From a plasmid: 3,781 nucleotides of DNA. The stretch is taken from assembly GCF_054482595.1 (NCBI RefSeq), contig NZ_JBTHVH010000005.1. One strand, given 5' to 3'. The position numbers were made by a program. This document shows, in pieces, positions 1-3,000 of this stretch (positions are counted from its first letter, which is position 1; the number at the start of each line of letters is the position of its first letter).

Positions 1-3000
1 GCGTTGCCGGTTTTCCATAGGCTCCGCCCCCCTGACAAGCATCACAGAATCGGACGCTCAAATCAGTGGTGGCGAAACCCGACAGGACTTAAAGATACCA
101 GGCGTTTCCCCCTGGTGGCTCCCTCGTGCGCTCTCCTGTTCCTGCCTTTCGGTTTACCGGTGTCATTCCGCTGTTATGGCCGCGTTTATCTCATTCCACG
201 CCTGACACTCAGTTCCGGGTAGGCAGTTCGCTCCAAGCTGGACTGTATGCACGAACCCCCCGTTCAGTCCGACCGCTGCGCCTGTTCCGGTAACTATCGA
301 CTTGAGTCCAACCCGGAAAGACACGACAAAGCGCCACTGGCAGCAGCCATTGGTAACTTGGTTCGCAGATGATTTGTTAGCTAAACACGAGGTTGCTCTT
401 GAAGTGTGCGCATCAGTACGGCTACACTGGAAGGACAGATTTGGTTGCTGTGCTCTGCGAAAGCCAGTTACCACGGTTCAGAAACTTGCCGGTTTACTGA
501 ACCTTCGAAAAAACCACCTTGCCGGGTGGTTTTTTCGTTTTCAGACCAAGAGATTACGGCTGTAACACAAGAATCTCAAGAAGATCTTAAAATATGTGGA
601 AAGGATACAGGCTGATAACAACTTCCTCCATAGACATAATCGAACAAAAAATAAACAAAAAAAATGATTTTAAGAGTTTTCTCACACCTAAATAATAGGT
701 AAAATGTTTTTTATTTGATTGGCTTTTAAAATGAAATATACTAAATCAGCGAAAATATTCATCACAGCTACTTTAATTTTATTTATTTATTTATCCTATA
801 CTTTAATAACTATTGTTGGTATATAAAAATGGAAAGTAATTCACCTGATATTGATTTCATCGAGTTATTTCTCTTTCTTAAGAAAAAAATCGTGAGCATT
901 GTTTTGTTTGTTGTTTTCTCATTGATTTTGTCATCTATTTTCTTGTTGGCAAACAAAAACAAAATAAATATAAATTACGAATTAAATATGATCGCTAATT
1001 CACCAGGTATGATTATTAACTGTGGGGATGACTTTTATTGTAAAGCGAATATTATACAATCAATCATAAACAATAAAAGCAAGTTTATAACATCAAATAT
1101 AGATGAGAGAGGAAAAAAAAATAAACCTGTCATGGGCTGGTGATGACCGTTACAAACCCTTGGTTACCGCTGAAGTAAACGCTATCCATAAAGCTATTAA
1201 TGACTGGTACATCCAAGATTATAAAACTTATAAAAGCATAGTTAACAACCAGGATAGCAACTATATAAATGGCACTGAAACATATGCAAAGGTTGCATTA
1301 TTAACTAAAACAAACACTTCCGGAGAAAGAAACTTTATTTCAATCAATACTGAAATAGTAAATAAAAAGTATAAACCAGCTTTAATTATGACTCTAACAT
1401 TAATTATGGCTATTATCCTTTCCTCCTCGTACCATATAATAAAAAGATCTGTACTTGACTATAAAAATAAGTCAAATGGGTCTTTTTATTAGCCTGTAAC
1501 GATTAATAACCGTATTCAAGCAACATCCGTTACACGCCTGATGCAGAAAAGCCCGCTAATAGCGGGCCTCCCGATAAATCTCACTGGGTGATGCCTCTAA
1601 TTAGTTGAATCTGATGTATAATACGGGCTTTTGAGGTTATCTCATAGCCAGCGTTAATATTCATTGTCCCCGTTGTCAGTTAGCTCGGGTTTACCGCCAT
1701 GGTCAGAACCCTAAAGGCCGTGACAGATTTCGCTGCCGTGACTGCCACCGTGTGTTTCAGCTCACTTATACTTATCAAGCACGTAAGCCGGGTATGAAAG
1801 AGCTGATCACTGAAATGGACTTTAATGATGCCGGGGTTCGCGATACCGCTAGGACACTGAAAATTGGTATTAACACCGTCATCCGGACTTTAAAAAACTC
1901 GCGCCAACGCGAATAACTTCTTCGCCTGTTGCCCATGCTGATGTGGCGCTTATCTGCGAGCTTGATGAACAATGGAGCTACGTTGCCGGCAACACTGGCT
2001 CTGGTACGCGTACAACACCAAAACAGGCGGTGTACTGGCCTACACTTTTGGTCTCCGAACCGATCAAACGTGCCGGGAGCTACTGGCACTGCTTACACCC
2101 TTCAATATCGGCATGCTCACCAGCGATGACTGGGGCAGCTATGGCCGGGTGGTGCCGAAGAATAAGCATCTGACCGGCAAAATATTCCCCCAACGCATCG
2201 AGCGTAATAATCTGACGCTACGCACCCGCATTAAGCGGTTGGCTCGTAAAACAACCAGCTTCTCACGCTCAGTTGAGATCCACAAAAAAGTGATCGGAGC
2301 GTTTATCGAAAAACACATGCTCTACTAATTGGATGCACTACCAGATTCTGAACCGTGGATATATAAGTCTGCATTTCAGCTTCATCAATCCCGTTTTTTT
2401 TACTGAATCCATTTACCAATATCCTGTCCATACGTTACTAAAGAAAATAATATATACGGAATGAGTTATCATGCGCCTAATTTACCATAACATCTGTTGC
2501 GTGCACCGCCGCAGAGGCCCTCAGCGCGTTTCTGACGGGAAACCGGTAAAACAGGCAACAAACCACCCGAAAACCCGCCAGAAACGCGCAGGCTCTGTTT
2601 TTACGGCATGCATGAGTATGCGCGCAAGTGCATAGTGCGGAAATTCACGCCATTCAGCCGGGGTAAGTCCTGTTTCCGATGTTCTTCTTACCCGAAAACG
2701 GTGAACGGGGACGCAATTTATTGCGTGGCCGTGAGGCGTTGCCGGCACAGCCGGAAAAACCGTTTTCAGCACGTTCAGGAAGGGGGGTGGATGTACAAAT
2801 GGTACAGAGGATGGAACTGACGTAAAAGTGACGTATGAGCTGAAGGAATGATGTAAAAGTGATGTATAAATGATGTAAAAGTGATGCAAAAGCGTTGTAA
2901 AAGTGATGTACAGGCCGAAGGAGTGTTGTAAAAGTGTTGTAAAAGTGATGTATGAACTGAAGGAGCGATGTAATTCTGTAGTCAGGAAGAATAACCCGTT

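What the first reader, a model, noticed from the sequence alone, without database searches (positions are those of the whole stretch)
399..545. RNA I / RNA II loop sequences differ from both p15A and pMB1, implying a distinct incompatibility specificity
Seen in sequence: the promoters, terminator and overall layout are conserved, but the internal RNA I sequence (…ggaaggacagatttggttgctgtgctctgcgaaagccagttaccacggttcagaaacttgccggtttactgaacc…) differs at many positions from the p15A and pMB1 RNA I that I recall. Established knowledge: RNA I loop sequences set ColE1-family incompatibility. Inference: this plasmid may coexist with standard p15A and pMB1 vectors or plasmids.
Basis: partly seen in the sequence, partly recalled or inferred. 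Interest (0 to 1): 0.3.

Follow-up and report, generated by a model that had tools for sequence, protein, structure and literature searches.

The report
ColE1-type RNA I with own loops
This small plasmid controls its copy number with an ordinary ColE1-type antisense RNA whose recognition loops differ from those of the common lab replicons p15A and pMB1, so it should be able to share a cell with them; this variant is already common in sequenced E. coli plasmids.

Summary
Window 435-541 (+) is a ColE1-family RNA I (Rfam RF00106, 97 bits). It folds into three hairpins, with conserved RNA I and RNA II promoters and an origin about 530 nt downstream. All three loops differ from pMB1/ColE1, p15A and the RSF1030-type plasmid NTP16. 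Only loops II and III, both CUUGCCGG, are distinctive. The origin is a mosaic: p15A-like body, CloDF13-like RNA I promoter and stem-loop I, and its own stem-loops II/III.

Compatibility with pMB1 and p15A plasmids is well supported but untested. Complete E. coli genomes hold this RNA I, or a variant with the same loops, beside a true ColE1 plasmid and beside a p15A-like plasmid. Crude loop-pairing energies fall at or below those of known compatible pairs. The relation to CloDF13 is less certain.

The allele is not rare. The region is 100% identical in 8 PLSDB plasmids and at least 95% identical in plasmids of 58 of 5426 complete E. coli genomes (MOB-suite rep_cluster_2358). This is an ordinary new member of a known kind.

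Side finding: across about 140 RNA I variants, loop I assorts freely while loops II and III tend to carry the same sequence.

The parts
399..428 (+). RNA I promoter: -35 TTGAAG (399-404), 18-nt spacer, -10 TACACT (423-428)
   Evidence: TCTTGAAGT is invariant and GGCTA(C/A)ACT is conserved across ColE1, pMB1-type, p15A-type, CloDF13 and NTP16. That these hexamers are the promoter comes from knowledge of ColE1. The generic consensus scanner did not flag them.
435..541 (+). RNA I, the antisense copy-number regulator (about 107 nt). The 5' end is set by homology to ColE1 RNA I; the 3' end is the U-run.
   Evidence: Rfam RF00106, 97.2 bits, at 436-538. Three-hairpin MFE of -45.1 kcal/mol, z = -5.8. 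On 8 related sequences 90.9% of cells are paired and 7 pairs show compensatory changes.
442..473 (+). Stem-loop I; loop CUGCGAA at 455-461. Identical, together with the 5' tail, to CloDF13.
   Evidence: Alignment A1: window RNA I nt 1-44 equals CloDF13. Folds.
475..503 (+). Stem-loop II; apical CUUGCCGG at 485-492 (MFE tetraloop UGCC, 487-490)
   Evidence: Unlike pMB1/ColE1/p15A/NTP16 (UUGGUAG) and CloDF13/ColK (UCCCCA).
506..541 (+). Stem-loop III with U-run, the RNA I terminator; apical CUUGCCGG at 518-525
   Evidence: Same octamer as loop II. Unlike pMB1 (CUGGUAG), ColE1 (UUGGUAG), p15A (CCUGCAAG) and CloDF13 (CUCCCCAG).
551..579 (-). RNA II (primer) promoter: -35 TTGAGA (579-574), 17-nt spacer, -10 TAATCT (556-551)
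   Evidence: Read directly from the sequence. Both hexamers are conserved in the window, CloDF13, p15A-type, pMB1-type and ColE1. Function is inferred from ColE1.
12..543 (-). RNA II pre-primer (about 530 nt). Its first 109 nt or so are the exact complement of RNA I. It ends at the RNA-to-DNA switch (oriV), about 11-14.
   Evidence: The origin aligns continuously with ColE1, p15A-type, CloDF13 and ColK across the window's end/start junction. The oriV position is inferred from the ColE1/pBR322 sequence ...CCTATGGAAAA|C... (own knowledge).
350..450 (.). CloDF13-like segment of the mosaic origin (RNA I promoter, stem-loop I, and RNA II just downstream of the antisense overlap)
   Evidence: 50-nt windows: 92-94% identity to CloDF13 against 48-80% to p15A here. 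Positions 50-340 are 96-100% p15A-like and 76-92% CloDF13-like.

Best explanation
Window 399-579 is the copy-number and incompatibility control module of a working ColE1-type (RNA II-primed, no Rep protein) replicon.

How it works (mechanism taken from ColE1, not shown here): RNA II is transcribed leftward from about 543 and primes DNA synthesis near position 12. RNA I (435-541) is its exact antisense. It folds into three hairpins, kisses the three complementary RNA II loops, zips up from its 5' tail, and so blocks primer formation.

Specificity lies mainly in the loops. This allele combines a CloDF13-type loop I (CUGCGAA) with a pair of identical loops II and III (CUUGCCGG) not found in pMB1/ColE1, p15A, RSF1030-type or CloDF13. 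RNA I from pMB1 or p15A plasmids should therefore bind this plasmid's RNA II poorly, and the reverse, so the plasmid should coexist with them. It belongs to a natural specificity group already widespread in E. coli and Salmonella small plasmids (MOB-suite rep_cluster_2358).

Shown: sequence, structure, layout, loop differences, distribution, natural co-residence. Inferred: transcript ends, kissing specificity, compatibility.
For: - Rfam RNAI match at 97 bits; three-hairpin fold with z = -5.8.
- Conserved promoters and terminator; origin alignment to ColE1/p15A/CloDF13 across the circular junction.
- Compensatory changes in helices II and III: 7 pairs, 90.9% of cells paired.
- Loops differ from every classic reference except loop I of CloDF13.
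- Crude 9-mer loop-duplex energies, given in both directions: self -43.4 kcal/mol; against pMB1 -11.5/-21.2; against p15A -13.8/-10.6; against NTP16 -6.8/-11.6; against CloDF13 -26.7/-17.7. Pairs reported as compatible: ColE1-p15A -19.1/-17.3 and p15A-NTP16 -29.7/-29.1. Incompatible pair: ColE1-pMB1 -40.9/-38.3.
- Natural co-residence with a true ColE1 plasmid, with a p15A-like plasmid, and with another ColE1-like plasmid in strain 2017.10.01CC.
- Region 380-600 is 100% identical in 8 PLSDB plasmids and at least 95% identical in 59. It is at least 95% identical in plasmids of 58 of 5426 complete E. coli genomes. This indicates a maintained, functional replicon.
- MOB-suite places relatives in rep_cluster_2358, apart from ColE1/pMB1 (2350), p15A (2335) and CloDF13 (ColRNAI_1857).
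Against: - There is no experimental compatibility or transcript data for this allele.
- The co-resident partners were ColE1 itself (1 nt from pMB1 in RNA I) and a p15A-like plasmid with a 1-nt loop II difference, not exact pMB1 or p15A.
- An assembly shows co-occurrence in a culture, not stable inheritance without selection.
- The duplex energies ignore kissing-loop geometry.
- 44 nt of identity with CloDF13 (5' tail and stem-loop I) could allow some cross-inhibition with CloDF13-type plasmids.
Confidence: 0.8

Rival explanations
1. The differences do not change specificity. The conserved stems, the 5' tail and the invariant AAGCCAGUUACC segment give enough cross-pairing for the plasmid to remain incompatible with pMB1 or p15A replicons.
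For: 74-77% overall RNA I identity to pMB1, ColE1 and p15A. Stem I is almost invariant across the family. PMC9458437 warns that loop divergence alone does not guarantee compatibility.
Against: All three loops differ. Classic replicons reported as compatible share one or two whole loops and similar overall identity. Plasmids with these loops co-reside naturally with a ColE1 plasmid and with a p15A-like plasmid.
Confidence: 0.1
2. The plasmid falls in, or partly overlaps, the CloDF13 incompatibility group, because the 5' tail, stem-loop I and the RNA I promoter region are CloDF13-type. One cognate kissing loop plus the tail could nucleate duplex formation.
For: RNA I nt 1-44 are identical to CloDF13. 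Positions 350-450 are 92-94% CloDF13-like. The loop-duplex score against CloDF13 (-26.7/-17.7) is the highest cross score for this RNA I.
Against: Loops II and III differ (UUGCCGG against UCCCCA). p15A and the RSF1030-type NTP16 share stem-loops I and II almost completely and score higher (-29.7/-29.1), yet p15A and RSF1030 are listed as separate compatibility groups (PMC9458437). Loop I CUGCGAA occurs with five different loop II/III pairs in metagenome contigs, as expected if loop I alone does not fix the group.
Confidence: 0.2
3. The region is a decayed or non-functional copy of a ColE1 control region, and its divergence reflects relaxed constraint rather than a working specificity.
For: The plasmid carries other damaged genes: a frameshifted GNVR gene and a degenerate IS1. 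It has no rop.
Against: Both promoters and the terminator are intact. The fold is strong and substitutions relative to relatives are compensatory. The 221-nt region is 100% identical in 8 independent PLSDB plasmids from E. coli and Salmonella. This is the only replicon in a 3.8-kb circle, so it must work. p15A-type replicons also lack rop (own knowledge).
Confidence: 0.03

Closest known systems
CloDF13 RNA I / origin (NC_002119)
   Same: RNA I nt 1-44 (5' tail, stem-loop I, loop CUGCGAA) are identical, and 90/107 nt overall. Hairpin II has the same architecture: 12-bp stem, bulged A, small apical loop. The RNA I promoter region is 92-94% identical.
   Different: Loops II and III are CUUGCCGG here and UUCCCCAA / CUCCCCAG in CloDF13, with compensatory stem changes. 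The body of RNA II (positions 50-340) is p15A-like, not CloDF13-like (76-92%).
p15A origin (pACYC-type; here pKD071, MK753226)
   Same: The RNA II body and origin, positions 50-340, are 96-100% identical. No rop. The terminator stem is similar.
   Different: All three RNA I loops differ (UCCUCCAA / UUGGUAG / CCUGCAAG). Positions 350-400 are only 48% identical. Different MOB-suite cluster (2335 against 2358).
pMB1 / ColE1 RNA I (pBR322/pUC type; NC_001371)
   Same: Same family, layout, promoters and three-hairpin RNA I; 78-79/107 nt identical.
   Different: All three loops differ. Stem-loop III is longer in pMB1/ColE1, and they encode Rop. A plasmid with the window's loops co-resides with a ColE1 plasmid in strain EH09-18-41.
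Natural plasmids with the same RNA I: E. coli S1 plasmid A (NZ_CP010227), p30COLEC-3 (NZ_CP070933), pTA141-2 / pEH09-18-41_4 (6-kb ToxN plasmids), Raoultella ornithinolytica NBRC 105727 contig (L102)
   Same: RNA I is identical, or has the same three loops with a few stem changes. MOB-suite rep_cluster_2358.
   Different: Cargo differs: mobilisation genes, Rop, ToxN, or GNVR plus IS1. The closest whole-plasmid matches cover 94-96% of the window at 96-97% identity. No identical record was found.
RSF1030-type (NTP16, NC_002090)
   Same: ColE1-family three-hairpin RNA I; 81/107 nt identical.
   Different: Loops are UCCUCCAA / UUGGUAG / UUGGUAG, and none matches. That NTP16 represents RSF1030 is my own knowledge. 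The RSF1030 sequence I recalled matched NTP16 at 97.8%.

Membership tests
ColE1-family RNA I (Rfam RF00106) | Matches the family covariance model above its gathering score | tested here: met
   97.2 bits against a gathering score of 47, full-length model match 1-102
ColE1-family RNA I (Rfam RF00106) | About 108-nt RNA with a single-stranded 5' tail and three stem-loops, the last serving as an intrinsic terminator | tested here: met
   MFE and centroid both show three hairpins followed by a U-run, z = -5.8. 7 pairs show compensatory changes and 90.9% of cells are paired on 8 relatives.
ColE1-type replicon (RNA II-primed theta replication) | RNA II promoter on the opposite strand just beyond the RNA I terminator, so that RNA I is antisense to the 5' end of RNA II | tested here: met
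   TTGAGA-17 nt-TAATCT at 579-551 (-), aligned with the ColE1, p15A and CloDF13 RNA II promoters
ColE1-type replicon (RNA II-primed theta replication) | Conserved RNA II body and oriV about 500-550 nt downstream of the RNA II start; no plasmid Rep protein needed | tested here: met
   Continuous alignment to ColE1/p15A/CloDF13 from about 590 through position 1 and across the junction to about 3600. No Rep-like ORF in the window.
ColE1-type replicon (RNA II-primed theta replication) | RNA I actually inhibits primer formation; replication depends on DNA polymerase I and RNase H | not testable with these tools
   Needs transcript mapping, a polA host test and copy-number assays
pMB1/ColE1 incompatibility group | RNA I loops (nearly) identical to pMB1/ColE1, so that RNA I cross-inhibits | tested here: not met
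   Loops are CUGCGAA/CUUGCCGG/CUUGCCGG against UCUGCUGA/UUGGUAG/CUGGUAG. A variant with the window's loops co-resides with a ColE1 plasmid.
p15A incompatibility group | RNA I loops (nearly) identical to p15A | tested here: not met
   p15A loops are UCCUCCAA/UUGGUAG/CCUGCAAG. An identical RNA I co-resides with the p15A-like p30COLEC-4.
CloDF13 incompatibility group | RNA I loops (nearly) identical to CloDF13 | tested here: not met
   Loop I and the 5' tail are identical, but loops II and III differ (UUGCCGG against UCCCCA). Functional cross-reaction was not testable.
Any ColE1-family incompatibility group | Operational definition: two plasmids cannot be stably co-inherited without selection | not testable with these tools
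   Only co-occurrence in finished assemblies could be examined

The most novel reading that the evidence does not exclude
The window's RNA I illustrates a general rule that I could not find stated for the family as a whole. Specificity in ColE1-like plasmids may be built combinatorially from two modules. Stem-loop I (with the RNA I promoter) assorts freely with a stem-loop II + III unit whose two loops evolve in concert and usually carry the same 6-8-nt sequence: UUGCCGG twice here, UUGGUAG twice in ColE1, UCCCCA twice in CloDF13 and ColK, and so on.

If real, new incompatibility groups would arise mainly by recombination between modules, plus concerted change of two loops. That concerted change could come from gene conversion, or from selection for two equivalent docking sites that raise the kinetically critical on-rate.

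Evidence: 10 of 23 unique loop II/III combinations (GTDB contigs plus references) and 12 of 27 (metagenome contigs) share at least 6 nt, against 1.7 +/- 1.2 and 1.6 +/- 1.2 under permutation. Loop I CUGCGAA occurs with five loop II/III pairs, and the CUUGCCGG pair occurs with five different loop I sequences. The sibling backbone pVE-T9_5 carries a p15A-type RNA I.

Identity of two loops has been remarked on for single plasmids (pCS36-4CPA and ColA, PMC5935869). p15A is an exception to the rule.
Probability: 0.3. Interest if true: 0.45.

Novelty: new member of a known kind. Interest (0 to 1): 0.2.

Why it matters
In practice, this is a natural fifth ColE1-type specificity that could serve as an extra compatible high-copy origin alongside pMB1, p15A, RSF1030 and perhaps CloDF13. 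For plasmid typing, it helps explain why several ColE1-like plasmids can stack in one enterobacterial cell. Conceptually it adds nothing new, because the role of RNA I loops in ColE1-family incompatibility has been textbook knowledge since the early 1980s. The side observation is the only part that might interest a specialist: stem-loop I reassorts as a module, and loops II and III change in concert.

Tried and rejected
- The generic promoter/terminator scan of 300-720 flagged neither RNA promoter nor the RNA I terminator. They fall below its thresholds, so they were placed by alignment to ColE1-family references instead.
- RNAalifold on 18 diverse RNA I sequences recovered helix I and part of helix III but not helix II, because MAFFT misaligns the hypervariable hairpin. 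A set restricted to the same architecture, scored with the window's own structure, was used instead. Each of about 140 sequences also folds into three hairpins on its own.
- The second Rfam hit on the minus strand (505-596, 24.6 bits, E = 0.15) is just the near-palindromic terminator and was dismissed.
- PlasmidFinder-style reference plasmids recalled from memory (pMG828-1 Col(MG828), pIGJC156 Col156, pBS512_2 Col(BS512)) lack the ColE1-type RNA I motif. They are not the same type.
- Probing neighbouring accessions for co-resident plasmids twice returned large unrelated plasmids and once no record.
- The strain lists for p15A-type and ColE1-type RNA I in E. coli genomes are cut at 60 rows. Absence of an exact p15A co-resident is therefore not evidence of incompatibility.
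- A full-text search for this RNA I sequence found no paper that prints it. rep_cluster_2358 appears only as a typing label in surveillance papers. A search for papers discussing loops 2 and 3 found nothing relevant.
- pTA142-4 (RSF1030-type) belongs to a different strain from pTA141-2, so it gives no co-residence evidence.
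Full report
**What is there.** The 3781-base window behaves as a complete small circular plasmid. Its ColE1-type origin aligns continuously with ColE1, p15A-type, CloDF13 and ColK origins, from about position 590 leftward through position 1 and across the end/start junction to about 3600.

Rfam's RNAI model (RF00106) matches 436-538 on the + strand at 97.2 bits, against a gathering score of 47 (E = 3e-18). Taking the 5' end by homology to ColE1 RNA I (own knowledge: 5'-ACAGUAUUUGG), the RNA spans 435-541. It folds into a 7-nt tail plus three hairpins at -45.1 kcal/mol. 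None of 200 dinucleotide shuffles folds as well (z = -5.8).

Alignment with five reference origins shows the conserved control signals:
- RNA I promoter: TTGAAG at 399-404 and TACACT at 423-428.
- RNA II promoter on the opposite strand: TTGAGA at 579-574 and TAATCT at 556-551.

RNA II would start near 543 and reach the RNA-to-DNA switch near 11-14. That is about 530 nt, a typical length for the family.

**Reference sequences.** ColE1 (NC_001371), CloDF13 (NC_002119), pColK-K235 (NC_006881) and NTP16 (NC_002090, RSF1030-type) were fetched by accession or by hit. Each matched public records at 100%, and the loci used were pCAPs and pKD071. Their identification as pMB1 and p15A is my own knowledge. 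Rfam located RNA I in every reference.

**Loop comparison.** Apical sequences, from each RNA folded on its own:

| Plasmid | Loop I | Loop II | Loop III |
|---|---|---|---|
| window | CUGCGAA | CUUGCCGG | CUUGCCGG |
| pMB1 | UCUGCUGA | UUGGUAG | CUGGUAG |
| ColE1 | UCUGCUGA | UUGGUAG | UUGGUAG |
| p15A | UCCUCCAA | UUGGUAG | CCUGCAAG |
| NTP16 | UCCUCCAA | UUGGUAG | UUGGUAG |
| CloDF13 | CUGCGAA | UUCCCCAA | CUCCCCAG |
| ColK | CCACUAA | UCCCCAA | CUCCCCAG |

All three loops differ from pMB1, ColE1, p15A, NTP16 and ColK. Identity over the full RNA I is 78, 79, 82, 81 and 82 of 107 nt respectively.

That stretch covers the 5' tail, all of stem-loop I and the start of stem II. On eight RNAs of the same architecture, the window's structure is kept in 90.9% of cells. 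Seven pairs show changes on both sides, all in helices II and III. Helix I hardly varies.

**The origin is a mosaic.** Identity in 50-nt windows:
- Positions 50-340 are 96-100% identical to the p15A-type origin, against 76-92% to CloDF13.
- Positions 350-450 are 92-94% identical to CloDF13, against 48-80% to p15A.
- Positions 450-500 (stem-loop II) resemble no classic reference by more than 78%.

A sibling plasmid backbone, pVE-T9_5, covers 83% of the window at 89% identity and has the same GNVR gene. It carries a p15A-type RNA I instead. The control region therefore moves between backbones.

**How common it is.** Region 380-600 is 100% identical in 8 PLSDB plasmids and at least 95% identical in 59. 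These are 3.5-6-kb plasmids from E. coli, Salmonella, Citrobacter and Klebsiella. In complete E. coli genomes, 58 of 5426 carry it at 95% identity or more.

The 95% variants (pTA141-2 and pEH09-18-41_4, which are 6-kb ToxN plasmids of O157, O111 and cattle strains) have the same three loops and two stem substitutions. A Raoultella contig has the same loops with other stem changes. MOB-suite types these plasmids as rep_cluster_2358. ColE1/pMB1 is 2350, p15A is 2335 and CloDF13 is ColRNAI_1857. No paper in the held library prints this RNA I. The allele is known as sequence but, as far as I could find, has not been characterised.

**Does it imply a separate incompatibility specificity?** Established knowledge (Tomizawa and Itoh 1981; Lacatena and Cesareni 1981; summarised in PMC9458437 and PMC8683028) is that ColE1-family incompatibility comes from RNA I of one plasmid inhibiting RNA II of the other. 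Recognition begins at the loops, and single loop changes can create new specificities. Three lines of evidence bear on this allele.

First, calibration against the classic groups. PMC9458437 lists ColE1, p15A, CloDF13 and RSF1030 as different groups. Yet ColE1 and p15A share loop II exactly. The RSF1030-type NTP16 shares loops II and III with ColE1, and loops I and II with p15A. The window shares no loop with pMB1 or p15A.

Second, a crude energy proxy: RNAduplex on 9-nt loop apices, which ignores kissing geometry. Values are kcal/mol, summed over the three loops, in both directions.

| Pair | Energy |
|---|---|
| window with itself | -43.4 |
| window and pMB1 | -11.5 / -21.2 |
| window and p15A | -13.8 / -10.6 |
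| window and NTP16 | -6.8 / -11.6 |
| window and CloDF13 | -26.7 / -17.7 |
| ColE1 and p15A (reported compatible) | -19.1 / -17.3 |
| p15A and NTP16 (reported compatible) | -29.7 / -29.1 |
| ColE1 and pMB1 (incompatible) | -40.9 / -38.3 |

Third, natural co-residence in finished assemblies:
- Strain EH09-18-41 holds pEH09-18-41_4 (the window's loops) and a colicin E1 plasmid whose RNA I equals NC_001371.
- Strain 30COLEC holds p30COLEC-3 (region 100% identical) and p30COLEC-4, whose loops I and III equal p15A and whose loop II differs by one base.
- Strain 2017.10.01CC holds a plasmid with the window's loops and another ColE1-like plasmid with a p15A-type loop I and different loops II and III.

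I put it at about 0.8.

Caveats:
- No experiment exists for this allele.
- The co-resident partners are not exact pMB1 or p15A.
- PMC9458437 shows that loop divergence alone does not reliably predict compatibility, and that compatibility can be directional.
- The relation to CloDF13-type plasmids is open. One cognate loop plus the 5' tail might give partial cross-inhibition. Against that, the p15A/RSF1030-type precedent and the free assortment of loop I argue for separate groups.

**Other features of the replicon.** There is no rop gene. A tblastn search with ColE1 Rop finds nothing significant, whereas the control pTA141-2 gives 1e-40. Control would therefore rest on RNA I alone, as in p15A (own knowledge).

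**Survey and side finding.** One motif scan of GTDB genome contigs and one of metagenome contigs yielded 49 and 93 distinct RNA I sequences. The 49 include the window and the reference and relative loci already loaded. Every one folds into three hairpins.

Loops assort combinatorially. In the metagenome set there are 54 distinct loop triples. Loop I CUGCGAA occurs with five different loop II/III pairs, and the CUUGCCGG/CUUGCCGG pair occurs with five different loop I sequences, including the p15A-type loop I.

Loops II and III co-vary. Among unique loop II/III combinations, 10 of 23 and 12 of 27 share a string of at least 6 nt. Permutation gives 1.7 +/- 1.2 and 1.6 +/- 1.2, and none of 20,000 permutations reached the observed value in either set. 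Identity of two loops has been noted for individual plasmids (pCS36-4CPA and ColA, PMC5935869). p15A is an exception. The permutation test is not phylogenetically corrected, and the motif used for the scans fixes stem I. This is a lead, not a result.

**Verdict.** The finding is correct and its interpretation is reasonable. What it describes is an ordinary, widespread member of the ColE1 family, a new member of a known kind. Interest is low, at 0.2. The most novel reading left open is the modular, concerted-loop architecture of specificity.

Noticed in passing
window 435-478 compared with L004 (CloDF13) 769-812: The 5' tail, stem-loop I and the first bases of stem II of RNA I (nt 1-44) are identical to CloDF13. 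Only stem-loops II and III set this allele apart.
   Followed up: yes
window 1-600: The origin is a mosaic. Positions 50-340 are 96-100% p15A-like, 350-450 are 92-94% CloDF13-like (p15A only 48-80%), and 450-500 resemble no classic reference by more than 78%.
   Followed up: yes
window 485-492 and 518-525; loci L013-L261: Loops II and III carry the same octamer, CUUGCCGG. Across about 140 distinct RNA I variants, loops II and III share at least 6 nt far more often than permutation predicts (10/23 and 12/27 combinations, against about 1.6 expected), while loop I assorts freely.
   Followed up: partly
L010 (NZ_AP027968.1, pVE-T9_5): A sibling plasmid backbone (83% of the window at 89% identity, with the same GNVR gene and an IS1 remnant) carries a p15A-type RNA I instead. 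This implies exchange of the control region between backbones.
   Followed up: partly
window 829-1492 (+), A-run at about 1114-1122: The small GNVR-domain (Wzz/chain-length-determinant-like) gene has predicted N- and C-terminal membrane segments. It is split into two ORFs by one extra A in a homopolymer run (A9 here, A8 in E. coli S1 plasmid A). This could be a sequencing error, a pseudogene or slippage.
   Followed up: partly
window about 1587-2341: An IS1-family element, with an InsA C-terminal domain at 1752-1916 and the IS1 DDE domain at 1972-2328. Read by eye, the ends are imperfect inverted repeats and the usual insA ATG reads ATA. The repeat finder found no inverted repeat with its 9-nt exact seeds. 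Probably degenerate.
   Followed up: partly
window 2480-2507 (-): A cer-like Xer recombination core, GGTGCACGCAA-CAGATG-TTATGGTAAAT, found by pattern match. It resembles the ColE1 cer core as I recall it. Presumably the multimer resolution site.
   Followed up: partly
window 2849-2973: A tandem array of about 9.6 copies of an 11-bp unit (TGATGTAAAAG), with a 42-bp higher-order period. No Pfam domain in the overlapping ORFs. Function unknown.
   Followed up: no
window 3005-3022 (-): No rop gene. The only trace is a 6-residue identity to the C-terminal part of ColE1 Rop, next to the tandem array (E = 0.13, not significant). It may be a rop remnant.
   Followed up: partly
L017, L018, L030, L034, L038, L084, L090, L113, L117 and other GTDB loci: Exact pMB1-, p15A- or CloDF13-type RNA I sequences occur in assemblies labelled Streptomyces, Paracoccus, Nitrospira metagenome-assembled genome, Arthrobacter, Pseudoalteromonas and others. 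These are almost certainly cloning-vector or enterobacterial plasmid contamination of those assemblies.
   Followed up: no
CP148521.1 (13,869 bp, E. coli from a cat) and several metagenome contigs with two RNA I matches (e.g. L142, L144, L146): Some records hold two or three ColE1-type RNA I copies on one molecule. These may be multimers, cointegrates or assembly artefacts.
   Followed up: no
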